This document shows positions 10,966-59,648 of a stretch of 64,000 nucleotides of DNA, in pieces. Position numbers and translations under genes: made by a program. Every line of letters starts with the position of its first letter. Positions within the stretch are counted from its first letter, which is position 1. A model generated the notes under the pieces. The model saw nothing but the letters and a program-made list of their open reading frames with translations, had not been told where the DNA came from and did not search any database. Source of the DNA: Fimicolochytrium jonesii (lineage: Eukaryota); the NCBI RefSeq assembly GCF_025526975.1, contig NW_026515678.1, forward strand, positions 434,001 to 498,000, written 5' to 3'.

Positions 10966-11660
10966 TCACGCCTTGGGTTTGCGGTACCGGTCTATATCTC
11001 CCTGGCAGTTGGTCGATCCGCAGCAGCACTGGACAGCAATCGACAGGGTTTTAGATCTTGTGACTCAGCCCGTACCCAAACACTCATGTCCCTTCGCCTC
11101 GCCCTCACCTTGAAGTTCCATGCCGGATCCCAATAATCTGTATCATCCCCCAGGTTATACAATAATCTCCTCATCCTTCTTTACGGGCCGAGTGAGGATG
11201 ATATGGAGGTTGGAAAGTTTCGCGTTTGGGTCACAGGAGTCTGAGATTAGAGGGGAAAGGAGGGGTGATTTAGAACGGGTTGTGCTGGAGTGTTGTGGGA
11301 TTAAGCAAACTTACGATTTGCGAATCGTGCGTCGGAGGTGGGGAGAAGCCTTAGCTGGGAATGAGAAAGGACGTTTAACTCCTGCATCATCTGATCTGAT
11401 ATCGTATGTCGCAAACAGATCACGGGTGACGATTGGAAGAAGCCTGATGTGCAGGCGCAACATGGGCTGGAGCATTTCTGATCGCATATCCGGAAGAACA
11501 TCATCAAGGCAAGGGCGAATGGTGCGAGAGAGGGTGAAAGTGATGGGAGGAGGAAGTTGCAGAGACTGGGTGTGGAGGGGGAGTTGTGAGAGAGGGTGAA
11601 GGTGGGGGTCTGGGCAAGGTGAGCCGCTTATGTGTATATATCAGATCTCTGGTGCGTTTG
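10966..11660 (-). pseudogene. SET-domain methyltransferase, C-terminal half (SET-C + post-SET), frameshifted
   Basis: Splicing introns 11241-11314 and 11029-11108 gives 'ARFAN|HSCDPNA...TRPVKKDEEII' then, in a shifted frame, 'YNLGDDTDYWDPAWNFK|CCCGSTNCQGDI' (NHSC motif and post-SET CxCGSxxC). In-frame TAA/frameshift near 11157. Confidence 0.75.
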
Positions 11661-11795
11661 CAGTGCTCTATTCAGTTACATTCCAAATGATATTTGAGAA
11701 TATATAGTGTTGATTAGTACAAGTTGCCTTCATCGGCGACGCCTCAGGCAGAGGTACAATGATGTGGATGGCAGATAACCACCACGGAAAATGGG
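11661..11795 (-). ncRNA. Candidate Fanzor omegaRNA scaffold (predicted guide = flank 11660-11646)
   Basis: Lies between the Fanzor stop (11813) and the element end. Three hand-foldable stem-loops on the minus strand: 11785-11764 (GTGGTGG..CCATCCAC), 11757-11717 (GTAC.TGCCT..AGGCA.GTAC), 11704-11677 (TATATTCTCAAAT..ATTTGGAATGTA). Confidence 0.5.
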
Positions 11796-11812
11796 ATGGG
11801 GTGAAATCTAGA

Positions 11813-12694
11813 CTACCCGTTACGGGAGAATGCGTCTGGTCTGCGGCCATTGCCAAACACCACCGAACGCACAATCGAGAGGAAATTCTTGGTGCTCAGG
11901 ACGTCCCGATTGTACACTCTCATCCATAGTCGTAGTGGTCGTCTTCCAGGAATCTCAAATGCTGTCCAGTCTTGGTTGATACATTCGGGGTTGGGGCAAC
12001 CCACCAATCCATGGACGTATTCCATTCTTCCCTTTCTAGCTTGCCATGGCCGAGATGACAGCTGCTGTCGGATGTTTTTCTTCACACGGCCGTGGCAGTC
12101 TGGGCACACAGAAGAAGTTCGATACTCATCTAGCAAGTAGCACGGAATGCTGTTCCTTGCAAAGAGTGTGCGGAATCTGATTTCCATGATGAGTTAGCAT
12201 ATTATAATACATAGTAGGTACCACGAATGATGGTCACTCACCCCTTGGTCTTCGATGACTCCTGAAAGCGCATGGTTTTTCCAGCGTCGCTCCAATCACC
12301 CAAGATGACCGAAAGATGCTTTCCATACAGGCGTTGCATGTTCTTGATGAGCTTGCTCTCAGACTTTTGCCGCAGTGAGAACGCCTTGAACCTGCGAGCA
12401 ACGTGAATCTCATCCTGGTAAAACTCATCCAGGGCGGGATCTGGGATATGGATGGATGTCAGCCCATGTGTTACTAAATTTGAAGACAGCGCATAATACA
12501 TCATACCTGCATGTATGTGATCCACAATGAACGCTGAGAACGCCTCGATGTTCATGCTCTTGTGCGATGGAATATGTGATTCCATCTCAGCGATGCCAGC
12601 ATTGATCTTTCGCTCTCGCATGTCTCTTTGAAAGTACCGAGACTTTGTCTCGACCGCCCGTTGATTGGATGTGTATCTGGTATGGGGTGGTGCA
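11813..12694 (-). pseudogene. Fanzor1 (TnpB-like RuvC nuclease), C-terminal part
   Basis: Splicing introns 12441-12506 and 12177-12241 gives 'RYTSNQRAVETKSRYF...RRFKAFSLRQKSESKLIKNM...VILGDWS...KGFRTLF...LLDEYRTSSVCPDC...VHGLVGCPNPEC...YNRDVLSTKNF'. This includes the Fanzor-type relocated RuvC-II Glu (DEYRTS), the zinc-finger Cys pairs and RuvC-III NRD. Confidence 0.9.
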
Positions 12695-13245
12695 TGTTAC
12701 GGACGACGCGCCCATACCGTAAGCTTACCTACTGACGGCCGCCAATGTCAACCGCCAAATGTCAAACGCCAATGTCAATGTCAATGTCAGTGTCAATGTC
12801 AGTGTCAATGTCAGTGTCAATGTCAATGTCAATGCCACTCCCCCTCTCTCATCTCATTTCGCCAATCCTCCCGCAATATCGCCACTCCTCCTCTCTCCTC
12901 TCATTTCGCAAATCCCCCCTCGGCTTCTCCACACCCCCCACTACTTCCCCATAGCCAGCAGCTGTAGCAATGCTCTCTACGCTCGCCACCCACGCTCTAG
13001 GAGCATAGCTGGCGCCCCCCCAGTCCCCTCTTGTTGTTGTTGTTCTCTGATCTGCTGGGTTGCCTATCTATAAATAGCCGGCCTCTCTTCGTCCATTCCC
13101 TTCCTCCCCAGCAGTTCAAAACCAGTTCTTCTCATCTCCTGTTCTAGTCCTTGCTTCTTGTTTCGCCAATACAATCTCTTGTCGCCTATCACACTCGCCC
13201 TGTCTTCTCTACTTCGCTTCCGCCCCCGTTGTCGAGATCATAACA
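12695..13245 (+). repeat. 5' LTR of outer retrotransposon (contains (TCAATG/TCAGTG)n array)
   Basis: Starts TGTTACGGACGACGCG, ends TCATAACA, contains TATAAATA; direct repeat of 24092-24628. Confidence 0.95.
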
Positions 13246-13926
13246 GTTTGATCTGCTCCAACACTGCGAAGTTCAGAACCTGTCCAGCCCTGCATCCGAC
13301 AAACCTTTTTCGCCATGTCCCAACCCGAGTCCGTACCTTTCACCGCCAAGCAATGGAACGATATGTGCCAAGCCATCGCCGCCTTGCAAACCCAAAACGC
13401 CAACTTGCAGGCCAACCTAGCGCAAGCCCAAGCCGACGCACAAGCTGCCCAGAGCATCGCCGCCCAGGTTCAAGCCGATATGTACACCCGTCCCCAAGTC
13501 GCCAACCCTGCTCTGGAGCCAAGAATCAGCTCGCCCGAGAAGTTTGATGGTACCCGCAGCAAATTCCGTGGGTGGTTGAACAACATCCGGTTGATGTTTG
13601 CTCTCCAGCCCAACCGCTACCCCAGCGACATCATCAAGATCCAAACTATTGGCACCTACCTCACCGGCACTGCGCAAGCCTGGATAGCGCCCCTAGTCGA
13701 ACGCCAAGATCACAGCCTTCAGGACTTCGATAGTTTTATCAGTCAGATGCAATCGGTCTTCGGAGACAGCGACAGGGTCCGCACCTCTGAAAACAAGCTC
13801 CAGAACCTTCGCCAAACCCGTGCAGCAACCAAGTACGTCGCTGAGTTCCGCCAGCTACAATGCAATGTCTCCTGGAACGCCCAGGCCCTGATTGCTACCT
13901 TCCGCCGTGGCCTCAAAGAAGACGTC

Positions 13927-14457
13927 TGTTATGGACGACGCGTCCATACCATGCGCTTACCTCATGACAGCATCCCAACAGTCAGTCAATGTCAATTCCC
14001 TGTCAAAACCTGACATCTGCCAAACCTCGCAGCCGCACGCAGCTGCGCTACCCCACACCTGCCACTGCCTTCATTTCTCCACGCAGCCGCACGTAGCCAC
14101 ACCTCCCAACACTCGGCGCTTACAAACCCTTCTCCATACTTCCCCACGTACCCGCCCACAGCCTCAGCGTAGCCACCCCATCCCCGGTCTTCTGTTTCTA
14201 TGCTTCCCCACCCTTGGCGCTTCTCTTGGCTTCCCTCTCATTCCGTACCCTTCTGCTTCCCCACGCTTCCCCAGCCTTCCCAGAAAAACATAAATAGCCG
14301 CCTCCCCTGAGCTCCCCACTTCCTGATCCCCCCAGCAGATCAACACCAGTTCTTCCTAGTCTTGTTCTAGTTCTTGTTTCGGTCTGAATACCATTACCTG
14401 TCAACAACCTGCACCACAAGTCGCCTCTATTTCCATCGGCTCCGCCCATTCATAACA
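13927..14457 (+). repeat. 5' LTR of inner retrotransposon
   Basis: TGTTATGG...TCATAACA, near-identical to 19275-19805. Confidence 0.97.
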
Positions 14458-14469
14458 GTTTGATCTGCT
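14458..14469 (+). promoter_or_regulatory. Primer-binding site, self-priming type
   Basis: TTGATCTGCT (14460-14469) is the reverse complement of AGCAGATCAA (14334-14343), ~40 nt downstream of the LTR TATA-like box. No TGG tRNA-type PBS. The same PBS occurs at 13246. Confidence 0.7.
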
Positions 14470-14508
14470 CAACAACCCCCAGCCGCTGTACCTCCACGCC
14501 AAATCACC

Positions 14509-15435
14509 ATGTCCGACGCCCTTCCCCTCACGGCCGAAGCCTGGCAAGCCATGTGCAATGCGATTGACGAACTTCGAGCACAGAATACCACCCTACAAGC
14601 CGAACTAGCGCAAACCCAGACCACTGCCCCTGCCACCCACGCCCCCGAACCCAAAATCAGTCTCCCAGACAAATTTGATGGCACCCGAAGCAAGTTCCGT
14701 GGGTTCCTCAACCAGATCCGGCTCATGTTTGCCCTCCAACCCAGGCGCTACCCCAACGATCAGACCAAGATACGAACTATTGGCACCTACCTCACTGGCA
14801 CCGCCCAGGCCTGGCTGGCGCCCCTTGTCGAACAAGACCATCATTCCCTTACGAACCTGGATGATTTCATCCAGCAAATGCAAGCAGTCTTTGGAGACAG
14901 CGACAGGATCCGCACATCCGAAAACAAGCTCCAGAACCTTCAACAAACCCGTGCAGCAACAGAGTATGTAGCTGAATTTCGACAGCTGCAATGCGATGTG
15001 TCGTGGAATGACCAGGCATTGATTGCCACCTTCCGTCGCGGCCTCAAAGAAGACGTCAAGGACTTAGTGCTCACGATGCCCCCTACCGCCTCAATCGACA
15101 CTGTGATGGAACAGGCCATCCAATGTGACAACCGATTGTTTGAGCGCCGTCTAGAGCGAAGCAGGAACCGACAGTCATATGTGCCAGTTACCACTAGCCC
15201 CACCCTCATGAGCCCCGACAACCGCCCAGACGACCCTATGATCATTGACGCTGCTCGTCCGCGAGGACCCCTCACGCCGCTAGAGCGCCAACACCGCATC
15301 ACAAACAAACTTTGCCTCTACTCTGGTAAACCCGGCAACATAGCCAAACTCTGCCCGAACAAGATACGCACGGCGAATGTCGCGGTTAAGGAACCTGCAC
15401 CCATCCAGGATTTTGCCCAAGTCCAGCTGCAGTAA
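14509..15435 (+). CDS. gag: Gag of inner retrotransposon
   Basis: Intact 308-aa ORF with PDKFDG motif; the zinc knuckle is degenerate (CLYSGKPGNIAKLC). Confidence 0.92.
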   Translation: MSDALPLTAEAWQAMCNAIDELRAQNTTLQAELAQTQTTAPATHAPEPKISLPDKFDGTRSKFRGFLNQIRLMFALQPRRYPNDQTKIRTIGTYLTGTAQAWLAPLVEQDHHSLTNLDDFIQQMQAVFGDSDRIRTSENKLQNLQQTRAATEYVAEFRQLQCDVSWNDQALIATFRRGLKEDVKDLVLTMPPTASIDTVMEQAIQCDNRLFERRLERSRNRQSYVPVTTSPTLMSPDNRPDDPMIIDAARPRGPLTPLERQHRITNKLCLYSGKPGNIAKLCPNKIRTANVAVKEPAPIQDFAQVQLQ

Positions 15436-18400
15436 AGGCCGAGCAGCTGGGCAACACCTGTCCTGGGCCTTCTCACCACGCAAGTACTGCCAAGGGAGAA
15501 GCCACAAAACCTTGCTCCGATCCTGGCATCTCCAGCAACACCCTTCTCCTGACCACCAACAATGTCAATCTCCTATCTGAGATACCCTCACCCATGCGGA
15601 CTTTGGGCCCATCCTCACCATTCGAGTACCCTGTTACCCTGCAGATATCGGCCCAGCGAGCTCCAGTTCAGCTTTCAGCACTACTCGACACCGGTGCGAT
15701 GTCGTGCTTCATCGACGAAAGTTATGCCCGCAAGCACCGCATCCCACTTGTCAAGAAGGAGGACCCCATTGCGCTTGAACTGGTTGACGGACGTCCCAGC
15801 CATGCGGGCTCCATTACCCATCACACCCAACCTTTGGGCATGTGGGTCAACGACCATTTTGAGGAGGTGGTATTCCATGTGACATGTTCCCCGCATGCGC
15901 CAATCATCCTGGGGCTTCCCTGGTTTGAGCTCCATGATGTGGAGCTACACTGGAAGACTCGCACTCTTTGCGTCCGCTGCCATTGCGGTTTTGGACAATA
16001 CGCCTCCTGGGATGCCCTGCCAACAGAACCTAGCCCGAAGCCCTCAAAAACCCCTGAACCTCTGATCCGTATCCATCAAGACGAGATTTCAGTCTCCCTA
16101 GCCCAGACACCCAACACACTGGACCCAGCACCCACACCGATCCACGTATCGTTTATCAGCGCCCCAGCTTTCCGTGTGGCGGCAAGGCATGACCAGGCAT
16201 TCATTGCCTACGCCAATCCGACCAAGTCAGATTCCCAAGCCCTGGCGACCACTCCTCCAAAAGATCCGAAGGCCATCATTCCTGAAGAATACCAAGATTT
16301 TGCGGACGTCTTCGCCAAGAAGAACGCGGATACCCTCCCAGAGCACCGACCCTACGACTGCCCCATCGACTTAGAAGAGGGCAAACAGCCACCGTTCGGC
16401 CCGATCTATAGTCTCAGCGAGCCTGAAATGCAGGCACTCTGTGACTACCTTGAAGAGAACCTAGCTAAGGGGTTCATCAAGCACTCCAAGTCTCCCGCCG
16501 GTGCCCCAGTCCTCTTTGTCAAGAAAAAGGACGGTTCCCTCCGTCTGTGCGTCGACTATCGTGGACTCAACAATATCACCATCAAGAATCGCTATCCCTT
16601 GCCCTTGATTAACAGCATCATGGATCGTCTTCGAGGGGCACGCCGGCTCACCAAGATTGACCTCCGGGGAGCCTGCAACCTTCTTCGGATCCGGCCAGGG
16701 GATGAATGGAAGACAGCGTTCCGATGTCGCTACGGCCTATTCAAGTATAATGTCATACCGTTTGGGCACACCAATGCCCCTGGAGTATTCCAACACCTCG
16801 TGAACGACATATTCCGTGACATTCTCGACGTTTTTGTTGTGGTCTACCTTGACGACAGTCTGATCTTCTCAAAAAACCCAGAAGACCACCCCAACCACGT
16901 CCAAGAGGTGCTCTCACGACTCCGCCAGCACGGGCTGTATGCGAAACCGGAAAAATGCGAATTCAACCGTGACTCTGTTGAGTTCCTGGGGTTTATCATC
17001 TCTCAGCAAGGCATTTCCATGGACCCAAAGAAGACGGCTGCCATTACCAAATGGGAACCCCCGACGAATGTCAAAGGCATCCAACGCTTCCTTGGTTTTG
17101 CCAACTTCTACCGGCGATTCATCAAAGGGTACTCTGCGATCGTTGCACCCCTGACCTCGCTCACTCGCAAAGACTTGCCATTCAAATGGACCCACGCTGC
17201 ACACCTAGCTTTTGAAACCCTCAAGAAAGCCTTCACCTCCGCACCTATCCTGACTCACCCCGACCCTGACAAGCCCTTCATTGTCGAATCCGATGCCTCC
17301 GACTTTGCCCTTGGCGCCGTCCTCCTTCAACCCGATGACACAGATCAACTCCACCCCGTGGCCTTTCACTCCCGCAAATTTACTCCTGAGGAAATCAACT
17401 ATGAGATCTACGACAAGGAACTCCTGGCTATCCAAGACTCATTTGCTCAATGGCGACACCACCTCATTGGTGCCCGCCACAAGGTCATCGTTTACTGTGA
17501 CCACAAGAACCTCCAGTACTTCATGACTACCCGTACCCTCAACCGCCGCCAATCCCGCTGGTCAATCTTCTTTGCTGATTTTGACTTTGTCATCACATAC
17601 CGCCCTGGTACCCAGCAACACCAAGCTGACGCCCTCTCTCGTCGCTCTGAATACGAGCTAAGGGAGGGGGAAGAAGCATTCCGCTCCCAGGAAACCACGA
17701 TCCTCACCCCTGACCATCTCCGCCTGGCCGCCACTTATCTGACCCCACTGGACTCCTCGCTCCTTGACCAAATCAAAGCTGCCCTGGCATCCGATGTGTT
17801 TGCGCAAACCATCCGGCGACAGCTTAGGGCCCCCATTGCCCAGCAATCTCAAGAAGACCAAGAACGGATAAAGCGATTCTCCGAGGAAAATGGGGTTCTG
17901 CTGTACGACAACCTTGTCTACGTCCCCACCAACAAGCTCCGTGCTGAGATCTGCCGGGACATGCATGACACGCGTTTGGCAGGACACTACGGCATGTCAA
18001 AGACCCTGGAGCTCATCTCACGCAACTACTGGTGGCCTAGCCAGTGGCGTTTTGTCAAGTCCTACATCAGGTCCTGCGACGTATGTGCTCAAGCCAAGAC
18101 CAGCAGACACAAGCCCTACGGTCTCCTCTAACCCCTGCAGGTCCCTGACCGCCCCTGGGGGTCAATTTCCATGGACTTCATCACGGATCTACCCGCCAGT
18201 GATGGGGTTGATTCTGTGCTCGTTGTCATCTGCCGGTTCACCAAGATGGCGCACTTTGTACCGTGCAGGAAAACTGCCACCGCTGAGTCAACTGCAGATC
18301 TGATCTGGCACCATGTCATCCGGCTCCATGGACTCCCCGACGATATTGTATCTGACCGTGGCCCACAGTTCAACTCCCACTTCTGGAAACGTCTCTTCGC

Positions 18401-19262
18401 TCTCCTGGGAATCAAGGTCAACCTCTCATTGGCGTTCCATCCCCAGAGCGATGGACAAACCGAGCGGACCAATCAGATTCTTGAGCAATACCTTCGCTGC
18501 TTTTGCAACTATCAACAAGATAACTGGAAGGAACTCTTGTCTTCTGCTGAGTTCTCTTACAATAACACCATCCACTCCGCCACCCAGACAACCCCCTTCT
18601 ACGCCAACTATGGGTTCCATCCTCGATTCAGTCTGGCTTCCGCCACCACAACAGAATCCCTTAATCCTGCAGCCGAAGCTTGTGCCAACCATCTCAAGGA
18701 AATCCATGAACAGCTTGCCACTGAGCTCAAGGAGGCCCAAGGACGCATGAAGCGCTTTGCCGATGCTAAGAGGGCACCTGGCCCAGACATGAAACCCGGT
18801 GACAGTGTCTGGCTCTTACAGCGGAATCTCAAGACTCTCCGACCTTCCCAGAAACTTGATCACCGTAAGATTGGCCCCTTCACAATCACGGAGAAGATCA
18901 ACTCGGTCACATATCGCCTCAAGCTTCCCCCATCCTACAAAATTCACAACGTCTTCCATGTCTCCCTTCTTGAACCACGTTTCACCATTCCGGAGCGAAC
19001 TGAGCCAGAACCCACCCCACCAGAAGAAGTCGAAGGACAGGAGGAATGGATTGTGGAAGACATTCTTGACTCCCGTATTCGACGCACGCACCTTCAGTAC
19101 CTCATCCAGTGGCAGGGTTGGCCAAGCTCGGAGAACACATGGGAGCCAGTGGAACACCTTGCCCGATGTCAAGAGCTTGTAGCCCAGTTCCACCAAAAGT
19201 ACCCCGACAAACCCCGACCAAAGCCTGCCAACATCAAAACAACATCCGGACGCCGTGGCTAA
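15408..19262 (+). pseudogene. pol: Pol of inner retrotransposon (PR-RT-RH-IN-chromodomain), one premature stop
   Basis: The -1 frame is open from slippery site 15408 into ORF 15594. Motifs LLDTGA, YLDD, DASD, integrase core, chromodomain YLIQWQGW..NTWEP. A TAA at 18129-18131 replaces Gln in GLLQP; the frame continues into ORF 18171-19262. Confidence 0.93.
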
Positions 19263-19274
19263 AAGAGGGGGTGA

Positions 19275-19805
19275 TGTTATGGACGACGCGTCCATACCAT
19301 GCGCTTACCTCATGACAGCATCCCAACAGTCAGTCAATGTCAATTCCCTGTCAAAACCTGACATCTGCCAAACCTCGCAGCCGCACGCAGCTGCGCTACC
19401 CCACACCTGCCACTGCCTTCATTTCTCCACGCAGCCGCACGTAGCCACACCTCCCAACACTCGGAGCTTACAAACCCTTCTCCATACTTCCCCACGTACC
19501 CGCCCACAGCCTCAGCGTAGCCACCCCATCCCCAGTCTTCTGTTTCTATGCTTCCCCACCCTTGGCGCTTCTCTTGGCTTCCCTCTCATTCCGTACCCTT
19601 CTGCTTCCCCACGCTTCCCCAGCCTTCCCAGAAAAACATAAATAGCCGCCTCCCCTGAGCTCCCCACTTCCTGATCCCCCCAGCAGATCAACACCAGTTC
19701 TTCCTAGTCTTGTTCTAGTTCTTGTTTCGGTCTGAATACCATTACCTGTCAACAACCTGCACCACAAGTCGCCTCTATTTCCATCGGCTCCGCCCATTCA
19801 TAACA
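19275..19805 (+). repeat. 3' LTR of inner retrotransposon
   Basis: Direct repeat of 13927-14457, followed by TSD ACGTC. Confidence 0.97.
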
Positions 19806-20169
19806 ACGTCAAAGACCTGATGCTCACAATGCCCCCTGCGGCCACCATTGATGTGGTGATGGAGCAGGCTATCCAGTGCGATAACCGGCTGTTTGAGCGC
19901 CGCCTGGAGCAAAACAGAAGCCGCCAGACCTTCCCGGTTCCCCATACCTCGTTTACTACTACCACCACTGTCGACCACAGCGAGCCTATGCAGATTTACG
20001 CCGCTTGTCCCCGCGGCCCTCTGAGCCCTCAGGAACGCCAACGCCGCATTTCCAACAACCTCTGCCTTTACTGCGGTGGCGCGGGGCACATTGCAAAAGT
20101 CTGCCCCGTCAAGAACAAGACCACCACCCGTGCCGCCAACATTGACATCAAAGAACCCTCCACCAAACA

Positions 20170-23100
20170 GGGTTTTCCCAAAGTCCAGCCGCAGTAAAGC
20201 CCCAGCGACTGGACAACACACACCGCCCCGGGCCTCCTAACCTCGCAGCTCCTGCAACGGGAGAGGCCACCCCCCTGGTTCCCGACTCCGTTATAGCCGA
20301 CACAACCCTCCTAGCCGCTGCCCATGTCGAAAACTCCGAAATTAACCCCCGCGCCATGCTTGCGCTGGGTCCCGTCAAACCCTTCAACTACCCCGTTACC
20401 ATCATGGTATCATCCAGCCGCGCCCCGATACCTACCTCAGCCATGATCGACAACGGTGCCCTGTCCTGCTTCATCGACAGAGACTTTGCCCGCAAACACC
20501 GCATCGCCCTAGTCCCGCATCAGCGTCCACTGACGATCGAACTCGTTGACGGTCAACCCAGCTCTGCTGGGCCAATCACCCATCACACCCAACCAGTAGG
20601 CATGTGGGTCGACGACCACTTCGAAGAACTCGTCTTCCATGTCACCAAATCACCCCATGCTCCGATCCTCCTTGGACTCCCCTGGCTCCGCCTCCACGAC
20701 ATTAACCTTGACTTCAAGAACCTTTCGGTCGGTTTCCGTTGCGAATGTCAGTACCATGAATTCGCAAATTGGGACAACTCTCCAGCACCCCCGAGCCCAG
20801 CACCCGCCAGAACCCCCGAGCCCTTGATCCGCATCCCCCAGGATGAAGTTCCCGTCGACGAAACATGGTCGATTCCAGTACCCAAGGTATCTCGCTCCAG
20901 CACCCCAGAACCGGCTCCCACGCCGCTCCGAGTCTCGTTCATCTCCGCCCCAGCCTTCCGGGTCGCAGCAAGGCATGACCAGGTCTTTGCCGCCTACGTT
21001 AACCCTGCGAAACCCGATCTCCCAGCCTCGCCTAGCCCCAGTAACCCCCCGACACCCGAGAAAGACATCAAAGACTTCCTGCCCCCCGAGTATCAAGACT
21101 TCGCCAACGTTTTCGAAAAGAGAAATGCTGACACTCTCCCCGAGCACCGGCCCTACGACTGTCCAATCGATCTGGAAGAAGGCAAGCAGCCACCTTTCGG
21201 CCCGATCTACAGCCTCAGCGAACCAGAAATGAAGGCACTCTGCGAATACCTCGAAGAAAACCTCGCCAAAGGATTCATCAAACCCTCAAAGTCCCCTGCC
21301 AGTGCGCCAGTCTTATTCGTGAAGAAAAAGGACGGTTCTCTCCGCCTCTGCGTCGATTATCGAGGCCTAAACAGCATCACGGTGAAGAATCGCTACCCCC
21401 TGCTCCTGATCAACGGTATCATGGATTGTTTGCGCGGCGCCCGCCGTCTCACCAAGATCGACCTCCGCAGCGCTTAAAACCTCTTACGCATGCGCCCGGG
21501 CGATGAATGGAAAACCGCCTTCCGCTGCCGCTACGGCCTATTTGAATACAATGTCATGCGCTTTGGACTGAGCAATGCTCCTTGCGTCTTCCAGTACCTA
21601 ATGAACGACATCTTCCGCGACATTCTCGATGTGTTTGTTGTCGTCTACCTCGACGATATCCTGATATTCTCCAAGAACCCCGAAGATCACCCCAAACATG
21701 TCCGCAAAGTCTTGTCCCGCCTCCGACAGCATGGGTTGTACGCCAAACCAGAGAAGTGCGAATTCAACCGCGAATCCGTTGAGTTCCTAGGCTTCATCAT
21801 CTCCGAGAAAGGCATCCAGATGGACCCCAAGAAGATTGCTGCCATCACGGATTGGGAACCTCCCAAGACTGTCAAAGGCGTCCAGCGGTTCCTCGGCTTT
21901 GCCAACTTCTATCGCCGATTCATCCAGGGTTATTCCAAGATCGCTACCCCGCTCACAGCCCTGACCCGGAAAGACATCCCGTACGCCTGGACACCCGCCT
22001 GGACACCGCCTTCGAGAACCTGAAGAAAGCATTCACCACCGCCCCCATCCTTGCTCACCCTGACCCAGAGAAGCCCTTTGTCGTCGAAACTGACGCCTCC
22101 GACTTCGCTCTTGGCGCAGTTCTCCTCCAAACTGACCAGGACAATCAGCTCCACCCCGTGGCCTTCCACTCTCGCAAATTCACGGCCGAAGAGATCAACT
22201 ACGAGATCTACGACAAGGAACTTCTGGCCATCCAAGACTCCTTTGCCCAGTGGCGACACCATCTCATTGGCGCCCGTCACAAGATCACCGTTTACTCCGA
22301 CCATAAAAACCTTCAGTACTTCATGACCACCCGCACCCTGAACCGCCGCCAAGCCCGCTGGTCGATATTCTTCTCGGATTTTGACTTTGTCATTACCTAT
22401 TGCCCCGGTTCCCAGCAGCACCAAGCCGATGCCCTCTCCCGACGCTCCGAACATGAGCTTAAAAAGGGGGAAGAAGCGTTCCGCTCCCAGGCAACCACAA
22501 TTTTGACTCCCGAACGCCTTCGACTCGCCGCGGCCTACCTCACACCCATGGATACCACGCTGCTTGACAAGATTAAGGCCGCCCAGGCCTCTGATCCCCT
22601 CGCTAAGACCATTCGCCAACAGCTCAAGATACCCCTCGCCCAACGAACCGAGGAAACCCAAGATCGTATCAAGCGGTTCTCAGATGAAGACGGGATCCTG
22701 CTGCACGATAACCTGGTCTATGTCCCCACCAACGAGCTCCGAGCTGAAGTCTGCCACGACAAGCACGATACTCCCCTAGCCGGCCACTTTGGGATGTCCA
22801 AGACGCTCGAACTCGCCTCCCGCAACTACTGGTGGCCCAGCCAGTGGCGCTTCGTCAAGGCCTACGTCAAGTCCTGCGATACCTGTAGCAAAGCGAAATC
22901 CAGTCGACACAAACCATACGGCCTACTCCAGCCCAACAGTATCCCTACCCGCCCTTGGGGATCTTGGTCCCTGGACTTTATCACCGGTCTGCCTCCCGTG
23001 GACGGGTACGACTCCATCCTGAACGTCAACTGTCGCCTCACCAAGATGGCCCACTTCATCGCCTGCAGCGAGTCAGAATCCGCCGAATCCACCGCCGACC

Positions 23101-24079
23101 TAGTCTTCCACAACATCATCCGTCTCCACGGCCTCCCCGACGACGTCATCTCTGACCGAGGACCCCAGTTTAAGTCCCGGTTCTGGCGTTGACTTCTCGA
23201 ACTCCTTGGGGCAAAGCCAACCTCTCCTCGGCCTTCCACCCCCAGAGCGATGGCCAGACGGAACGCACCAACCAGATCCTGGAGCAGTATCTCCGATGCT
23301 TTTGCAACCACCAACAGGACAACTGGAAACAGCTTCTGTCGTCCGCCGAGTTCGCCTACAACAACACCCACCAGTCCGCCTCCCAGACCACCCCCTTCTA
23401 CGCCAACAAGGGTCTCCACCCCCGCTTCAGTTTCGCGGCCTCTGCTACCTCCGAATCCGTCAACCCCGCCGCTGAAGCCCGCGCTAAACAAATCAGGGAA
23501 GTCCATGAACAGCTCGCCCTCGAGCTCAAGGAAGCCCAAGATCAGATGAAGCGCTACGCCGACGCTAAATGAATTCCTGGACCGGACTTCAAGCCTGGCA
23601 ACCATGTCTGGCTCCTCCGCAAAAACCTCCAGACAGCCCGGCCCTCTCAGAAACTCGACCATCGCAAGATCAGGCCATTCCCCATTGTTGAAAAAATCAA
23701 TCCCGTCGCCTACCGGCTCAAGCTCCCGCCTACGTACAAAATCCACGATGTCTTCCATGTCTCGCTCCTCGAACCCCGCTTCACTATCCCCGAACGACAC
23801 GAACCCGAACCCGCGCCCCCAGAGACCGTTGAGGGTCAAGAAGAGTGGGTTGTCGAAGCCATCCTTGACTCTCGCATCCATTGTCGTCGCCTTCAGTACT
23901 TGGTCAAATGGCAGGGCTGGCCTGACTCCGAGAACACCTGGGAGCCCGTGGAACACCTCACCCATACCGACGCACTCCTCCAGGACTTCCACAGCGCGTA
24001 CCCCAACAAACCTTCCTCTGTCCCCGTAGCACCTCCTCTGCGGCCACACCAAACTCGACGCCGCCGCCGCCGCCGCTAA
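20170..24079 (+). pseudogene. pol: Pol of outer retrotransposon, multiply disrupted
   Basis: ORF pieces 20356-21477, 21490-22023, 21852-23192, 23189-23572 and a chromodomain near 23850-23950. Stops at 21477 and 23572; frameshifts near 21990-22010 (GCCTGGACACC duplication) and 23190. Confidence 0.92.
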
Positions 24080-24091
24080 AGAGAGGGGTGA

Positions 24092-24628
24092 TGTTATGGA
24101 CGACGCGCCCATACCATAAGCTTACCTACTGACAGCCGCCAATGTCAACCGCCAAATGTCAAACGCCAATGTCAATGTCAATGTCAGTGTCAATGTCAGT
24201 GTCAATGTCAATGTCAATGCCACTCCCCCCTCTCCTCTCATTTTGCCAATCCTCTTGCAATATCGCCACTCCTCCTCTCTCCTCTCATTTTGCCAATCCC
24301 CCCTTGGCTTCTCCACACCCCCCACTGCTTCCTCATAGCCAGCAGCTCTAGCAATGCTCTCTACGCTCGCCATGCACGCTCTAGGAGCATAGCTGGCGCC
24401 CCCCAGTCCCCTCTTGTTGTTGTTGTTCTCTGATCTGCTGGGTTGCCTATCTATAAATAGCCGGCCTCTCTTCGTCCATTCCCTTCCTCCCCAGCAGATC
24501 AACACCAGTTCTTCTCATCTCCTGTTCTAGTCCTTGTTTCTTGTTTTGCCAATACAATCTCTTGTCGCCTATCACACCTGCCCTGTCTTCTCTACTTCGC
24601 TTCCGCCCACGTCGTCGAGATCATAACA
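24092..24628 (+). repeat. 3' LTR of outer retrotransposon
   Basis: Direct repeat of 12695-13245 with roughly 25 substitutions and a 12-bp shorter microsatellite (hand count). Confidence 0.95.
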
Positions 24629-25517
24629 ATCCTGGGGAGGAAACAGAGCCCATAACTCGTCGAGGACGGTCCGCTCAAGTCGTGTGAGGCGCGCAAACTC
24701 TTCTTCGGTTGGAAACTCTTCAAACGTCGCATACTTTTTAAACTGACGGACACGCTGATAATAGTGTCGCCGCTGCGCTCGGTTGACTCCAGCTCTACGG
24801 AGATGCAGTACGACTTGCTTCAAACCAAGCCTTTCATTGACGTAGCGCAGAAAAATTTGCATGAAATGCTCTTGTACGTTAACTTTGAGGTTTGTGAAGA
24901 TGCTCGTAGCCGTGTACGCTGCGGTCTGATGGCAATACTGCATGCGGATGGGGGCGAATCCGTGAACATCACAGTAGTCTTGAACCCATGGATGCAACAC
25001 TTGCACGATGACCGGATTGCCGTTGTAGCCTGGATTGTTTAGCAGCTCAAATATCACACTGATGTGCTTGTCGGTGATGTCCGGGAAATCGTGTAGAGGA
25101 TGATCAGCTGTGGTGGGGGGCAGACGTAGCAGTCAGGACATTGGTTTATGGGAAATATACTGTGTACCTCAAAAACTCACCAAGGTAGTACTTGAGAAAA
25201 AAGCTGGTGTGGCGCGCAAGGATGTGAACATTGCCGACGAATGTTGTCAGGCGCTCCCTTTGCTCCCTTTGAACTTGATTATGGATGATTCGGTGAAGCA
25301 AAACCTTGGTGCTGGCATGTGTTTGCGGGCGGGGTCGTTGAGCTGGTGGTGGTGGCGGGGGTTCATACACCAGGGATCCACCCGGTGTGCTGGGAAAACG
25401 GAAAGGGATGGGCGCGGGAAGGTTCAGTGGGCGCTGCAGACCCCTGTCCGCAGGTGAAAGCCCTCGCTGCGGCTGCTGCTGCTGCCTGTCTTCATCGCCG
25501 GAGCTCTCGCCAACCAT
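24629..25517 (-). pseudogene. Fanzor1, N-terminal part (WED-I/REC), truncated by the LTR
   Basis: Splicing intron 25108-25180 gives 'STKVLLHRII...VGNVHILARHTSFFLKYYLADHP..PDITDK...YTATSIFTNLKVNVQEHFMQIFLRYVN...LFPPQD|LTR', matching the Fanzor1 N-terminal pattern (H.F.K.Y.L; T...NN.K.HF..Y..RYVN). Start may be 25517 or 25715. Confidence 0.8.
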
Positions 25518-26075
25518 GTCTGCAATTGCTTGGGGCAAGTGGCGATGGACAGAGGGCGGGAGCTCGAATCGTGGGGTTTGCAATGGTGTGGCTGGCAGAC
25601 ATATGGGCAATTGCTGGGTAACCAGAGCAACCTTCCTCCTCTTCTGCCGTGGTGTGGTTGCTCCAGTAAATATGCACCACCACAGGTGCCCCTGGAGCGC
25701 CTGGTGTGATGACATGTTGGCTGTGCTGTGCCGAGACAGGTGTTGCAGGTGATTGCCGTGATGGCTGTGTGTCAAAGAACTTGCGTCAGTGCTGTGGTAA
25801 AGATTGCGGAGAGCAGGAAGGATTTACAGCCTGGCGCAGTCGTGGCGCAGTTGTGGCTTGTCGCCGCATCTCCAAGACCACGCTCTCCTCCTCTCAAACG
25901 AAACGTCAAGCGCTCGCAGCTCACGCAACTCACGCAGAGCACACTCTGAGCATGGAAACGTCTCGACGACAGCCCCCTCACCCCTGGCCAGCGCCCACCT
26001 CCTTCCAGCTCAAGCCCGGCAACTCACGCAGAGCAAGCGCATTTGAGCATGGAAACGTCAAGCAAGGTGAGTGGC

Positions 26076-26264
26076 CGCTGGCTGTTGACCGCCTGGGCTG
26101 GCGGTCCATATGGAGCACGACCGCCGCTTGCGGGAGGTCGACCTGCATGGGCCGTGCTGTCTGGGCGTCTCCGCTGGGTGTTGGCCGCCTGGGCTCGCGG
26201 TCCATGTTGAGCACGACCGCCGCTTGCGGGAGGTCGACCTGCATGGGCCGTGCTGCCTGAGCGT
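26076..26264. repeat. ~96-bp tandem duplication inside the Fanzor element
   Basis: 'GCCTGGGCT.GCGGTCCAT.T.GAGCACGACCGCCGCTTGCGGGAGGTCGACCTGCATGGGCCGTGCTG' occurs twice. Confidence 0.85.
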
Positions 26265-26294
26265 GTTTGCTATACGCTGATCTCACGGGCTGAG

Positions 26295-26803
26295 ATGCTA
26301 ACACCTTCCCTTCCCCCCTTCCCCTCTACCGCGCCGCAGGCCACGCCCCCGGTCGCACCCACCGCGGTCGAGGCTCTTCTGATGGGCATGGGCGAGACCT
26401 GCGCCACAGCTATCTTCGGCGACACGGTGGCCTTTTTGTATCCGCTGCTGGTAGACGCCGGCCTTGCCGCCCGGGACGCCAGCCTAGAAGACAAGGCCAA
26501 GGCGATTGGCCTTTTTTCACAGAAGATCAAGCAAGACAACCCCACCCTTGCTTTTTATATGGCCTTGATCCGTGGAACATGAGCATGGTGGAGGCCGCTG
26601 AACAGGTGCGCGCACCAAGTGGCACGGTCCTGGTGATTGCTGGCACATCGTTGGCGGAAGGGCCCACACAGACACTAGTCAAGAAACTCGCGAACAAGGT
26701 CCGGGAGGTAATCAACATCAACAGGCGACGGTTGACTGTCGACCTCGAACGTGCCTTATATATGCTGGGGGACATCGAAGACTTCTTCGGCAACCCCGAG
26801 TGA
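26295..26803 (+). pseudogene. Cargo ORF pair; second part resembles a sirtuin (SIR2) C-terminal Rossmann segment
   Basis: 'VLVIAGTSL...LVKKLANKVREVININ...LGDIEDF' resembles sirtuin GTSL / IN / GD motifs. Out of frame with upstream ORF 26250-26582. Confidence 0.4.
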
Positions 26804-27157
26804 CCCCGAGTGACCCGGGGTCATCTGAAGAAATGGCTAGTGTAGCGTGGGTAGCGTGTAGCAGTAGGTAGCGTGGCGAACGTCGTGGCAGTAGCGATGA
26901 AGCCCCTTTTGTATTACCGTGGCCTGTGGCGTGGCAGTAGCGATGAAGTCCTTCTGTTGATAAAAGTTAAGCATGGATAGCGTAGCGGGCTAGCGTGGCA
27001 TAGCAGTAGCAAGGAAAGAAAAGCTCTGTTGATAAATATGGTACAATCGCGCGGCAGCTACCCTACTTTCAGTTCCCGTATACAGCAGCTGCAAATAATA
27101 GGGCGGGGTGAGCCCGAATATACCTCTCGAAGGCGTCGCTTGACCATCGAGCGCCCC

Positions 27158-27370
27158 TCATATGGTACAGTACCTCTCTGTGTCACTCTTTACGGAAGAA
27201 ACTGTCAAAACTGTCAAAATCCTCCAACGCCTTCCCCCTGCTCTTGCTCTCTCGAGACTCAACACCATCTCCTGGACGATGCACGTACGGCAAAATAGGT
27301 GCCCGCACGGCCCGTTGTAGTTGGCAGGGTTGATCATACAGATCGGGCAAGTTGGACCGCCGTTCGGCAT
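27158..27370 (-). CDS. Small RING-finger-like cargo ORF
   Basis: CPIC..PCGHLFCRTC C3HC4-type motif; the final Cys pair is not clearly present in frame. Confidence 0.55.
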   Translation of the reverse strand: MPNGGPTCPICMINPANYNGPCGHLFCRTCIVQEMVLSLERARAGGRRWRILTVLTVSSVKSDTERYCTI

Positions 27371-28459
27371 CTTGATGGATTGGTTGGATTTGGGTGTCGG
27401 AAAGAGAGAGTGTGTTGTTGATTGGAATGGAGTTGAGAGCGGGAGTTGGACAGGCTGACTTTTGGACAGCTCGAGTCGGGGGAGTGTTGTGCAGAGACGC
27501 GAACTATCCTGTCAGTTGCTGTCATTGCGTAAGCAGACGCGTAAGCAGTCTGGTCACGGTCAGAGAGACAAAGACCCCGACGCCAGAGTCCGGAGTATAT
27601 AGACATACAACAAGTAATACATTAAGACCAGTAATGGTTCTACTCTTCATCGGCTACTTCCCAGTAATAACTCAACAAGATACGACCTCGCACGGTGGCC
27701 ATATGCGTTGTTAGTCTCAACCGGCCTCGCTCGTTGGTTCTTTTTCAACTTGTTTAATGGTGCTTTGGTGAACTTCCGCATCCTGCACGTCTTCCAAGTC
27801 CTCCACTATGCTATCGTCGTCCCTCGGGGCGTCACCATCGTCCAGACCATCTGCAGCGGCGGCCTCTGTGGTCTTTATATGCGTGTCTTTGACAGTTTTC
27901 TCGTAGGATATTCCCACCCGAATGCAACGGTACCTGCCCTGATCCATAGTACCATAATACAGGAAGGGCCGTTTTTTGAGGCTTGTGCTGCAACGGAGAT
28001 TCCTCACAGTGCCGTCAGTATCCAAGAATCCGACATGTTCGCCTGACTTGGTGCATCCGCCAAATTGTGTTGTGCGAACATCAAAGCCTGATATGAAATG
28101 AAGATGCCCACACCCCAGATCCCACCCGTAAAGAAGCAAAGAACGTAGAAGTTTCCGAGAGTTGTCACGCCTGAGGAAAAGAGGGCATATGTACGGTAAC
28201 AGTTTCAACCTCGGTGATCCCGAATGGCAGCTCTTGAAACAGGTGAAAGCTACCTATCAAGTGCGCCAACGTGACGCCCACGCTCAATGTTTAAGCTCGG
28301 AAAAGGTGATACTCCGACGGGGACCATATGTCACGAGAACCAAAAATCGTAGTCAGTGATTTTCAATACATATCATTAATTTGCATCAGGCGCTAGCTCA
28401 CCATTGCGTCCTTGAAGAATGCTGAAGTGTACGGCTAGGTTCAGATGGCAGCAGGTGTG

Positions 28460-28706
28460 CGCGGGGCGGAAACCGAAGGTCCCATCACACATAGGCGACG
28501 GTCCGTCCCTATGGCTAGCCCGTTGCCGAACGATGGGATCGCCGTTTCCCAGCTACCACTGTCCTTTATATGCCGTTGCTCGGCTGGATCACGGTTGCGT
28601 ACAGGTTATGCGCAGGGCGGAAACCGAAGGTCCCATCACACATAGGCAACGGCGTAAGATCCGTCCCTATGGCTAGCCCATTGCCGAACGATGGGATCGC
28701 CGTTGC
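28460..28706. repeat. Subterminal direct repeat (~90 bp x2)
   Basis: 'GGGCGGAAACCGAAGGTCCCATCACACATAGGC..TCCGTCCCTATGGCTAGCCC.TTGCCGAACGATGGGATCGCCGTT' at ~28463 and ~28615. Confidence 0.85.
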
Positions 28707-28762
28707 CCCGCCGCAATCGTCCACACCGGCAGAAAACTATTACTCTGCATTGTAGAGCACTG

Positions 28763-29333
28763 TCGGATGAACACGTTGATTGAAACGAGCACGCAAAACA
28801 TCCACACCCCGTCCTGGTGCAATCAACTAACCTGAGTCACCGTTCAATGATCGGACCCAGGGCGGCCTAGTTCCTTAGTGTGAAGCGGTCAAGCCCAGGG
28901 TAGGGGCGCGCGCGTAGATGCAGCGCGGTAAGGAGACCCGATCAGTTCAGAAACGGAGGAGACGGAGGTAATCCGGAAAGAGATGATCTACGACTGTGCA
29001 TGGGAGGGAGGAGAACAATGAGACAAGGCATTCCCGTGATGTTCCCACGCGTGTCGGATGGAGATTTGTGCGCAGACGGGAAGATGTTTTACCTTCACCC
29101 TCGAACCGCTCTACCACCGTTCCTGCCTTTCGAATAGCATGGCGTTGGTCTATCAGGTGAGGGATGGTGTGTATGAAGCAGGACAGTGGGAAGGTGGTGC
29201 TTACCGGGAGATCAGCATCGGCGAACAAAGCCTTCCCATAAGAGACTCCGCGGACATGGGACGCGTAGGTTTTGCGTGGAGTTGGAAGGAAACGGAGAGC
29301 CGCAAGGGGCGTTTGAATTGCTGTTGCTGCCAT
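28763..29333 (-). pseudogene. SET-domain gene, N-terminal half
   Basis: ATG 29333, 'YGKALFADADLP|intron|AGTVVERFEGE' matches the SET N-terminal GxGLFA..DI..G....Y.GE pattern. Same strand as the C-terminal half at 10966-11660; middle exons unresolved. Confidence 0.7.
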
Positions 29334-42302: not shown

Positions 42303-43082
42303 ATGATAACCCGGGAAGCAGCCCTCTCCCTACCCTGGGTCCCCACCGCCGCCGAAACCGCGCTCACGACCCCCTCCGAATTCACCTTCGGCGTCGAAAT
42401 CGAAGTCTTCTCGCCCTACCCCCGCGACGAACTTGCCGACCTCCTCACCAAGAAACAATCCATCGACGCCCGCGTCGTCTGGTTCACCCACGACGTCACG
42501 CCCTACTGGAAACTGCTGCGTGACGGAACCCTCGTTGACGAGTGTCCTAAAAACCATTATGGGATTGAGCTGGTCTCCCCCGTGTTGAGTGGCGAGAAGG
42601 GGATTGAGGAGACCAAGAAGGTCATTAAGGAGTTAAAGGTTGCGCCGGTTATTACGGATGATCGGACTGGGTTGCATGTGCATGTGGGGAGGCCACGGGA
42701 GGGGTGGACGTTGCCTGAACTCAAGAAGTTGGCAAAGGCGTTCATCCTACAGGAGGAGACGTTTGACGGGCTGGTGTCAGAGAGCAGACGAGGTGATACG
42801 AACCCGCAACTACGCTCCAACGCCGCGTTATGGGGCGACCGGGACCTCGTCGAGATTGACGCCGCGACCGACATCCACACCCTCATCAATCTGGTCAATT
42901 CTAATGGACACGGGGACTCTTGCCGGTACTTCAAGTTGAATTTCGAGGCGGTGAAGATGTACGGGACGGTTGAGTTTAGGCAGCAGACGGCGACGGTGGA
43001 TAGCGCCGCTACGATTGCGTGGATCGACGCTGTGCTGCATTTTTGCAGGTGGACTTTGCAGAATGACTTTGTAGATAGGTAG
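42303..43082 (+). CDS. Putative amidoligase (Amidoligase_2 / COOH-NH2 ligase), intronless
   Basis: TFGVEIE, WKL..DG, IELVSPVL, TGLHVHVG, RYFKLN, GTVEFRQ motifs. Confidence 0.85.
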   Translation: MITREAALSLPWVPTAAETALTTPSEFTFGVEIEVFSPYPRDELADLLTKKQSIDARVVWFTHDVTPYWKLLRDGTLVDECPKNHYGIELVSPVLSGEKGIEETKKVIKELKVAPVITDDRTGLHVHVGRPREGWTLPELKKLAKAFILQEETFDGLVSESRRGDTNPQLRSNAALWGDRDLVEIDAATDIHTLINLVNSNGHGDSCRYFKLNFEAVKMYGTVEFRQQTATVDSAATIAWIDAVLHFCRWTLQNDFVDR

Positions 43083-58578: not shown

Positions 58579-59080
58579 TTGAGTACTTCAGCGCAGGAGG
58601 TATCTGCGCAACATCCAATTGCTTCCATCCCGGAGTCGCAATTGAAGCGAGAAGCCGAGATAGCAGGGCAACTTCGACTCAACGCTGAGCTGGAAGAGCT
58701 GGAGATGAAGTTGCAAGCCGAGATCAATGGACGAAATAAACTCATCTTGGCAACATCTTGGCAACATCCATGCGGTCCAAGCCCTACCGTAGTCGTCTTG
58801 AACAATCCTGCGCCGTATGCCAACGCGTTCTCTTCCACAGAGAGAGATTGACAATTTGCAAGCGAAGGTCGACCAACTGGAACATGCTGAACAAGAACGG
58901 GACTCCGCCGCGGCGAAGGCAACCTCGCTCACCGAGGAGAGAGACACCTTGCAAATGCAAACAGTCGTCTTGAACAATCCTGCGCCGTGTGCCAACGCGT
59001 TCTCTTCCACACTCCAACATTTGGCGTTTCACTCGCCCGATCATCCACCCACCGCTACGTGCCGTGCGGTAGATGGCTGA
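58579..59080 (+). pseudogene. Fragmentary paralog of the coiled-coil gene
   Basis: 'REIDNLQAKVDQLEH.EQERDSAAAKATSL.EE..LQMQ' matches 55270-55520; a 47-bp internal repeat at ~58792 and ~58964. Confidence 0.55.
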
Positions 59081-59464
59081 CGAAGAACAGTCGGACAGAG
59101 TATGGGACATAGGAGCCAGACTAATTGATTTTGAGGATTCGCCGTCCGACCGCGTCAAACCTATGTCCTAGAAGCTCGAGTCGGGGGAGTGTTGTGCGGT
59201 AGACGCGAGCTCCTAGTTGTGACGGGTTAGGGTTGTGACTAGTTAGCGTTATATGTGTGAGTCACGCGCCTTCAGAGTAGAAAAGACGACGGCATATACC
59301 CCCGTTTTCTATACCTTTTTTTTCCCTTACCATATTCCAATTGAAAACCATTCTCTATACGATCTGACCATCGACGGCTACTTCCGATCTCGCGCACAAT
59401 AGGTTATGGCCACGGCGGCGTTGCTGCCTCCAGAAAAGACTCTAGATCTGTGGGCTGTGATTCG

Positions 59465-59648
59465 CTGTTACTCGCGCGCATGTAACCCTAAATGTAAGTT
59501 AATTTGCGCGAAAGGGTGTTATTTGGCGTGGAAGGCTGTTACTTGCCATGTAACCCTAACTGTAAGTCATTTCGCGCGGAACGTTGTTATTTCGCGCGAA
59601 AGGGTGTTATTTGGCATGGAAGGCTCTTACTCTCGCATGTAACCTTAA
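59465..59648. repeat. Non-coding imperfect tandem repeats (~90 bp)
   Basis: 'GCGCGAAAGGGTGTTATTTGGC.TGGAAGGCT.TTACT...CATGTAACC.TAA' twice plus partial copies. Confidence 0.75.

What the first reader, a model, noticed from the sequence alone, without database searches (positions are those of the whole stretch)
11661..28762. Unclassified Fanzor host element: 10-bp TIRs, no TSD, no transposase, several cargo genes
Seen: CAGTGCTCTA...TAGAGCACTG termini. Flanks GCGTTTG / TCGGATG share no duplication except an ambiguous TG, and joining the ends would give a perfect 20-bp palindrome. Subterminal repeats and RING, sirtuin-like and unknown ORFs lie inside. Inference: a non-autonomous cargo-carrying element. 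Its termini do not fit TA-mariner, 8-bp hAT or CACTA rules, so the mobilising enzyme may be an undescribed transposase or recombinase.
Basis: partly seen in the sequence, partly recalled or inferred. Interest (0 to 1): 0.72.

Follow-up and report, generated by a model that had tools for sequence, protein, structure and literature searches.

The report
Decayed Fanzor transposon, ends unclassified
This is a broken jumping gene that carries a Fanzor (RNA-guided DNA-cutting enzyme) gene, swollen from 5 to 17 kb by two retrotransposons and likely sitting inside one host gene of a chytrid fungus; it was likely moved by an ordinary cut-and-paste enzyme whose short footprint has since worn away, though a footprint-free mechanism is not excluded.

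Summary
The 10-bp inverted ends and the missing TSD are in the sequence. It holds a Fanzor1 gene that lacks 177 residues, including the first catalytic Asp, plus sirtuin-like, RING and unknown fragments. No transposase match was found. The two Fanzor pieces equal database models named Fimicolochytrium jonesii, where the family sits on at least 29 contigs; the nearest solved relative is SpuFz1. The flanks score as the two halves of one SET-domain gene, so this is an insertion. A 10-bp match alone is chance level (546 to 1,624 of 3,000 controls). But these ends copy known Fanzor carriers: CAGTG in mariner-type ROr-1 and ROr-3, and inner GTGC in SPu-1. Best reading (0.55): a non-autonomous element moved by a DDE transposase, with an eroded TA or 3-bp TSD. 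Two open twists: TSD-free insertion into CA^TG, which would give a CATG TAM, and an omegaRNA scaffold that may end 54 nt inside the terminus, which would fix the guide. No second copy's DNA could be read, so the superfamily is unresolved.

The parts
11661..11670 (.). 10-bp terminal inverted repeat, at the Fanzor 3' side
11661..11714 (-). AT-rich terminal segment with a hairpin; either a third stem of a long omegaRNA or the source of a fixed guide
   Evidence: GC 16 of 54; 87 of 46,792 flank windows are as low; fold z -2.08, 8 of 200 shuffles
11715..11791 (-). predicted omegaRNA scaffold with SpuFz1-type architecture (5' UUUUCCG, stem-loop 1, 6-nt linker, stem 2 closing at a TA)
   Evidence: z -2.42, 5 of 200 shuffles; expression untested
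11813..12694 (-). Fanzor1 3' half with introns (RuvC-II E, zinc finger, RuvC-III RD); database model P0045
12695..24628 (+). outer Ty3 chromovirus-type LTR retrotransposon; LTRs 12695-13245 and 24092-24628 differ at 23 sites; no TSD; replaces 177 Fanzor residues
13927..19805 (+). inner Ty3 retrotransposon nested in the outer gag; LTRs differ at 2 sites; perfect 5-bp TSD
24629..25715 (-). Fanzor1 5' half (low-complexity N-terminus and REC part), one intron; database model P0022
26075..26264 (.). two tandem 94-bp copies, 93% alike
26295..26803 (+). sirtuin-like C-terminal fragment in two frames (frameshifted)
   Evidence: weak matches only
27158..27370 (-). RING-finger fragment, 70 aa
27717..28253 (-). 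178-codon open frame of unknown nature
   Evidence: no relative found
28458..28711 (.). two subterminal direct repeats of about 100 bp
28753..28762 (.). 10-bp terminal inverted repeat, at the Fanzor 5' side
29093..29333 (-). host SET-domain gene, predicted exons 1-2 (N-terminal SET motif)
10966..11354 (-). host SET-domain gene, last three exons (C-terminal SET and post-SET), with a 1-nt frameshift at 11163

Best explanation
A 5.2-kb Fanzor1-carrying element with 10-bp inverted ends, a broken Fanzor gene and two nested Ty3 retrotransposons, which likely sits inside one host SET-domain gene and was likely moved in trans by an ordinary DDE cut-and-paste transposase (most likely Tc1/mariner type) whose short target duplication has since been eroded. 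Shown: the ends, the nested retrotransposons, the 177-residue gap, the cargo fragments and the large family at protein level. Inferred: (1) a transposase encoded elsewhere binds the CAGTG ends; (2) the site was TA (now TG and TC) or a 3-bp site (TCG and TTG, one CpG-type change apart); (3) in intact copies the Fanzor with its 3'-end omegaRNA would cut empty sites and so restore the element by repair; (4) two Ty3 insertions recombined, or one was copied in from a sister element, which removed the middle of Fanzor and left this copy dead.
For: Ends: ROr-1 (mariner transposase, TA TSD) and ROr-3 (TA TSD) begin CAGTG and end CACTG; SPu-1 and SPu-3 begin GTG with a TA TSD. Of the 11 fungal Fanzor families in that table with a TIR length listed, 6 have a TA TSD. 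Nearest solved relative is SpuFz1, E 3e-192, and Spu-1 elements also enclose no transposase and carry Ty3 insertions. A 2026 review states that all Fanzor carriers other than Helitron, Crypton and IS607EU use DDE transposases. The copy is old enough for decay: the outer LTRs differ at 23 sites in 551 columns, the Fanzor halves are about 90% and 93-96% identical to their nearest non-identical relatives, and the host gene has a frameshift. The junction zone is disturbed: about 640 bp lie between the SET halves, where homologues need some 25-40 residues, and no splice path with strong donors was found (0 paths). CpG is lower in the Fanzor segments (o/e 0.79-0.80) than in host genes (0.96-0.97). 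The left end marks the edge of an AT-rich segment.
Against: A TA TSD needs a change in both copies, one of them a transversion, which is unlikely at 2-3% decay per site. A 3-bp TSD needs only one change, but I know no 3-bp family with CAG ends (recalled, not tested). The TIR is short, 10 bp, against 25-133 bp in the SPu and ROr families. CpG in the cargo segment (0.94) is not depleted. A letter-identical twin of the 5' half exists on another contig (391 of 391 residues), so one of the pair is very recent; if this copy is the recent one, erosion cannot explain the flanks. No transposase was identified, and no other copy's ends were seen.
Confidence: 0.55

Rival explanations
1. TSD-free insertion. 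The element proper is GTGC...GCAC (8-bp ends, as in SPu-1) and was inserted bluntly into CA^TG. The empty site would then read CATG next to the guide-matching flank, a TAM one base from SpuFz1's CATA. The mobiliser would be an undescribed enzyme that works like Spy transposases.
For: Needs no mutation in the flanks. The inner four bases equal the SPu-1 termini. SpuFz1 reads its TAM with Q129, Q130 and N133, and N133 contacts the last two positions. In the F. jonesii models the QQ pair is kept in 23 of 27, and the N133 position is Ala in 26 of 27 and never Asn, which fits a changed last base. Spy shows that TIR elements with 10-12-bp ends and no TSD exist.
Against: One locus only. CATG follows automatically from any CA...TG inverted pair. 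CAGTG is also the known end of TA-duplicating ROr-1 and ROr-3. No Arg aligns with SpuFz1 R96, so the TAM inference is incomplete, and this copy itself has HQ rather than QQ. Spy ends (GGA) and target (AAATTT) do not match, and the passages seen report Spy from invertebrates.
Confidence: 0.22
2. The omegaRNA scaffold ends at the TA at 11715-11716, 54 nt inside the terminus. An SPu-1-type Fanzor cassette was captured by a CAGTG-ended carrier, and all copies would share one fixed guide (11700-11714, minus strand), aimed perhaps at carriers that lack the cassette. This can hold together with the best explanation or the first rival.
For: The 77-nt RNA folds into the SpuFz1 layout as its dominant structure (65% of the ensemble, z -2.42). 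It keeps the equivalents of U35, G37, A72 and A75, with an A-U pair in place of G39-C71. Forcing the matching arm to pair with the outer end costs 4.6 kcal/mol more.
Against: In the 131-nt RNA this stem has pair probability 0.24, against 0.45-0.62 for a stem that ends at the outer terminus. Fanzor1 scaffolds vary in length beyond stem-loop 1. The outer end also resembles SpuFz1's last six bases at 5 of 6. No full target for the fixed guide lies in the window: 16 sites reach 11 of 15 and none more.
Confidence: 0.25
3. The 10-bp match is chance. The true right end is the TA at 11715-11716 of an SPu-1-like element whose left end was lost, and the cargo is unrelated debris.
For: A 10-bp inverted match arises in 546 to 1,624 of 3,000 controls, and a 12-bp one lies nearby at 11592/29102. 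The scaffold layout fits that end.
Against: No inverted copy of the 11717 end was found from 12700 to 64000. The twin copy shares at least 930 bp upstream of the start codon. A chance match would rarely begin with CAGTGC (0 and 5 of 3,000 for the motif filter).
Confidence: 0.1
4. An hAT-like or other variable-TSD carrier whose duplication was removed by an adjacent deletion or by gene conversion from a sister copy.
For: Short CAG ends with subterminal repeats are typical of hAT (recalled). hAT is the most frequent Fanzor association in Jiang et al.. The outer Ty3 lacks a TSD, and only the 5' half has a twin among the 55 proteins held, which points to recombination at this locus.
Against: The 8-bp flanks match at 3 of 8. 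The flanks score as one gene, so any exchange had to rejoin within it.
Confidence: 0.1

Closest known systems
SPu-1 / SpuFz1 of Spizellomyces punctatus (PMC3627910; PMC10432273)
   Same: Chytrid Fanzor1, profile match E 3e-192; omegaRNA 5' end and stem-loop 1; inner ends GTGC...GCAC; no transposase inside; Ty3 insertions; dozens of copies
   Different: 10-bp against 30-33-bp TIRs; CA/TG in place of TA/TA beside the GTGC ends; 5.2 kb against 2.1 kb; introns and a long N-terminus in Fanzor; cargo fragments; N133 position is Ala
ROr-1 and ROr-3 of Rhizopus oryzae (PMC3627910, additional files 1 and 2)
   Same: CAGTG...CACTG ends; Fanzor1 with introns; ROr-1 is 5.2 kb
   Different: They have 90- and 133-bp TIRs and a TA TSD, and ROr-1 encodes a mariner transposase; here there is none
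PBl-1 of Phycomyces (PMC3627910)
   Same: Short TIR (12 bp), no transposase listed, fungal Fanzor1, 3-bp TSD
   Different: It starts CACTG and its TSD is TAN
Spy transposons (PMC4122938)
   Same: 10-12-bp TIRs and no TSD, a model for the blunt-insertion reading
   Different: GGA ends, AAA^TTT target, invertebrate hosts; no Fanzor mentioned in the passages seen

Membership tests
Fanzor1 | TnpB-like protein with D...E-zinc finger...RD motif, homologous to SpuFz1 | tested here: met
   E 3e-192 to SpuFz1; DPGK, LDEY and NRD all present in 4 of 7 models checked; this copy lacks the DPGK segment
Fanzor1 | [quoted passage not shown] | tested here: met
   Predicted only; no Rfam match; 3' boundary ambiguous
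Fanzor1 | variable guide taken from the flank | not testable with these tools
   No DNA of other copies and no RNA run listed
Tc1/mariner | TA target duplication | tested here: not met
   TG and TC beside the ends; decay possible
Tc1/mariner | CAGTG-type termini as in ROr-1 and ROr-3 | tested here: met
Tc1/mariner | mariner/Tc1 DDE transposase in some copy | not testable with these tools
   None in this copy; genome not held
SPu-1 family | 30-33-bp TIRs with TA on both sides and CA upstream | tested here: not met
   10-bp TIR, no TA
hAT | 8-bp TSD (recalled) | tested here: not met
   3 of 8 match
CACTA/EnSpm | CACTA or CACTG 5' end with a 2-3-bp TSD (recalled) | tested here: not met
   The 5' end is CAGTG; the 3-bp flanks match at 2 of 3
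Spy | GGA ends and AAA^TTT target, no TSD | tested here: not met
   only the lack of a TSD is shared
Helitron2 | asymmetric TIRs with terminal hairpins, insertion after TTTT | tested here: inconclusive
   No stable DNA hairpin at either end in 4 segments folded (z -0.94 to 0.05); the left flank ends TTTG, one of the T-rich sites listed
Crypton / IS607EU | no TIRs; short direct repeat or GG core; tyrosine or serine recombinase | tested here: not met
   The ends are inverted and no recombinase was found inside

The most novel reading that the evidence does not exclude
A large chytrid Fanzor1 family, close to SpuFz1, moves without any target duplication: an unknown enzyme inserts GTGC-ended elements bluntly into CA^TG, and the Fanzor has shifted its TAM to CATG through loss of N133, so the empty site is cut and refilled without a scar. 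A second, independent possibility is that the guide lies 54 nt inside the element and is fixed across copies.
Probability: 0.22. Interest if true: 0.75.

Novelty: new member of a known kind. Interest (0 to 1): 0.42.

Why it matters
Unclassified Fanzor1 carriers are already catalogued, so the likely reading adds one family. It is still useful: at least 29 contigs carry copies, some models keep all three catalytic motifs, and they are close to SpuFz1, a Fanzor with solved structures and shown editing activity in human cells, with a changed TAM-reading residue. Saito et al. found no transposase inside Spu-1 elements, so what moves them is open; dozens of related copies in one assembly make that testable by alignment alone. 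If insertion leaves no TSD, this would be a TSD-free TIR group distinct from Spy and a clear case of TAM and target matching. If the guide is fixed, it would break the rule that Fanzor guides come from the flank.

Tried and rejected
No whole genome is held and no sequencing run was listed, so other copies' ends and empty alleles could not be read; this is no evidence either way. Viral contigs gave no relative of the Fanzor alignment, of P0023, of the unknown frame or of the right-end motif. The one metagenome scan gave 3 loci at 30-44% identity, too distant to test the ends. The unknown 178-codon frame had no relative among 1.84 billion representatives or in the Atlas, and its fold could not be predicted because the machine was busy. 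The sirtuin piece had no longer relative among 215 candidates. Exact look-up of 8 cargo frames found none in the collection. Rejected: flanks from two different loci (a translocation), since they score as one SET gene. The first control for this was uninformative because HMMER scored the halves separately, and Pfam did not detect the N-terminal half. Rejected: the tyrosine recombinase fused to a Fanzor piece in model P0016 as the mobiliser. It occurs in 1 of 51 models and looks like a DIRS-type neighbour (recalled). Rejected as chance: a 9-nt match of TA plus guide seed at 26709-26717 and 8-nt seed matches in the LTRs. Splice reconstruction across the junction gave 0 paths with strong donors and 108-254 with loose ones; the 8 shown per model were implausible, so the host gene does not fix the breakpoint. 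Complementarity of the stem-2 arm to either candidate end is unremarkable (1,452 and 1,947 of 5,000 random 12-mers do as well). Four look-ups of earlier findings by place or sequence returned nothing.
Full report
Observation. The inverted 10-mer is at 11661-11670 and 28753-28762 and nowhere else in the window without a mismatch. No duplication of 1-12 bp flanks it; the nearest pairs are TG/TC, TTG/TCG, 4 of 7 and 3 of 8. The inverted repeat does not extend inward. Its length alone is chance level: 302 of 500 random 200-bp segments give a 10-bp match against the 5-kb upstream zone.

Anatomy. Pfam and self-BLAST show that 12695-24628 is two Ty3 retrotransposons with gag, protease, RT, RNase H, integrase and chromodomain. 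The inner one (13927-19805) has a perfect 5-bp TSD and LTRs that differ at 2 sites. The outer one has no TSD and LTRs that differ at 23 sites. Without them 5,168 bp remain. A Fanzor gene lies on the minus strand in two halves. Compared with five near-complete models, 177 residues, including the RuvC-I DPGK motif, are missing where the outer Ty3 sits. A missing TSD plus a deletion suggests that the two outer LTRs come from different insertions (inference). Upstream lie a frameshifted sirtuin-like C-terminal piece (weak), a 70-aa RING piece, an unknown 178-codon frame (no relatives) and two subterminal repeats. No transposase family matched 54 short frames or the longer ORFs.

Family. The halves match database models P0022 and P0045, named Fimicolochytrium jonesii, which have adjacent accession numbers on one contig. 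Of the 55 proteins held, 51 carry that name; they lie on 29 contigs of distinct length, and 29 hold the C-terminal motifs. The nearest solved protein is SpuFz1. Model P0030, on another contig, matches window 26648-24798 at 391 of 391 residues across several frames, so the 5' half and the sirtuin-like stretch exist twice. No such twin of the 3' half is among the 55 proteins, and a search of Yoon's table for neighbouring accession numbers found none. Recent transposition, gene conversion, segmental duplication or an assembly duplicate could each explain it.

Insertion site. The left flank encodes the C-terminal SET and post-SET motifs: Pfam E 0.017; E 5e-4 and 3e-5 with a profile of four prokaryotic SET proteins; 48 bits spliced. 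The right flank encodes a matching N-terminal motif with canonical splice sites. It scored 10.6 bits on a small N-terminal profile; 0 of 500 shuffles (409 scored) and 0 of 2,233 natural window pieces (1,464 scored) reached that. The profile rests on three sequences, so this is good but not strong evidence. The foreign block therefore lies between 29092 and 11355. Controls give one in 546 or 1,624 of 3,000 trials, and 0 or 5 of 3,000 with a transposon-like start, a filter chosen after the fact. The segment just inside the left end is unusually AT-rich (87 of 46,792 flank windows). I take the ends as probably real (about 0.85-0.9). The middle of the host gene could not be rebuilt and it has a frameshift at 11163, so the gene does not fix the breakpoint.

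omegaRNA. SpuFz1's scaffold is 75 nt with stem-loop 1, a 6-nt linker and stem 2, and ends at A75; set against the SPu-1 end, that includes the flanking TA (my mapping). Window 11791-11715 (minus strand, 77 nt) folds the same way and also ends at a TA. In the longer 131-nt RNA, a fold with a third stem ending at the outer terminus is about as stable (-31.7 against -30.7 kcal/mol), and scaffold length varies among Fanzor1s. So either the RNA runs to the terminus and takes its guide from the flank (my preferred reading, about 0.6), or the guide is internal and fixed (about 0.25).

Mechanism. Bao and Jurka list CAGTG...CACTG ends with a TA TSD for ROr-1, which encodes a mariner transposase, and for ROr-3, and GTG...CAC ends with TA for SPu-1 and SPu-3. 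The simplest placement is a non-autonomous element moved in trans by such a DDE enzyme, with the duplication blurred by age or by local rearrangement. A rough weighing of my own (not a computation) gives TA about 0.35, a 3-bp site about 0.2, no TSD about 0.22, hAT-like with deletion about 0.1 and chance ends about 0.1. The no-TSD reading has one specific point in its favour: CA and TG taken as target give CATG, one base from the SpuFz1 TAM, and the residue that reads that base, N133, is Ala in 26 of 27 family models while QQ is kept in 23 of 27. Against it, CATG is automatic for such ends, R96 has no aligned counterpart, and there is one locus.

Literature seen. PMC3627910: parts 1-4 of 7, additional file 1 whole, passages of file 2. 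PMC10432273: passages and sections 7 and 10; supplements searched with no hit for the genus, with one PDF unreadable and one too large. PMC10711439: passages and supplement. The species occurs 33 times; places 1-2 and 25-33 were seen, all in Table S2, the raw hit list. PMC10530073: passages; its two supplements gave no hit even for Spizellomyces, so that blank says nothing. PMC13565253: passages and section 20. PMC11423790, PMC4122938 and PMC5751038: passages. The proteins are thus in print as hits. Searches listed no paper that describes this element's ends; subscription papers, Repbase and the unread supplements may.

Verdict. A real, dead, rearranged copy of a large undescribed Fanzor1 family near SPu-1. 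It is probably an ordinary TIR carrier. The two unusual readings can be settled by aligning the other copies. Interest 0.42.

Noticed in passing
protein P0016: A gene model joins a tyrosine-recombinase domain (Pfam Phage_integrase E 5.6e-4) to a Fanzor fragment; probably a DIRS-type neighbour or insertion.
   Followed up: partly
L001:3190-3262 and L003:1452-1464: A metagenome Fanzor (44% identity, AT-rich compact contigs) has the same omegaRNA 5' layout; a 12-of-13 inverted match lies just past its scaffold, with no TSD, at chance level.
   Followed up: partly
window 27468-27505 and 59173-59211: A 39-bp stretch, 92% alike, is shared between the region upstream of the RING frame and an intergenic region with tandem repeats at 59479-59634; perhaps another repeat family.
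   Followed up: no
window 52225-58900: Long low-complexity ORFs with arrays of 75, 135, 165, 219 and about 255 bp coding for coiled-coil-like repeats; no clear Pfam family.
   Followed up: no
window 42303-43082: An intronless ORF with a putative amidoligase domain (PF12224, E 6.5e-25).
   Followed up: no
window 10966-11354 and 29093-29333: The host gene is a small SET plus post-SET protein of a type also found in prokaryotes (L004-L007), here with introns of 74-80 nt.
   Followed up: partly
proteins P0006 and P0033/P0047: These models on different contigs share several private substitutions, a second sign of recent copying in the family (seen by eye).
   Followed up: no
proteins P0046 and P0053: Gene models splice Fanzor pieces onto what look like host exons, which suggests further insertions in or beside genes.
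   Followed up: no
window 15390-19262: The inner Ty3 is young (2 LTR differences) and its pol is nearly intact, broken by a stop at 18129-18131.
   Followed up: no
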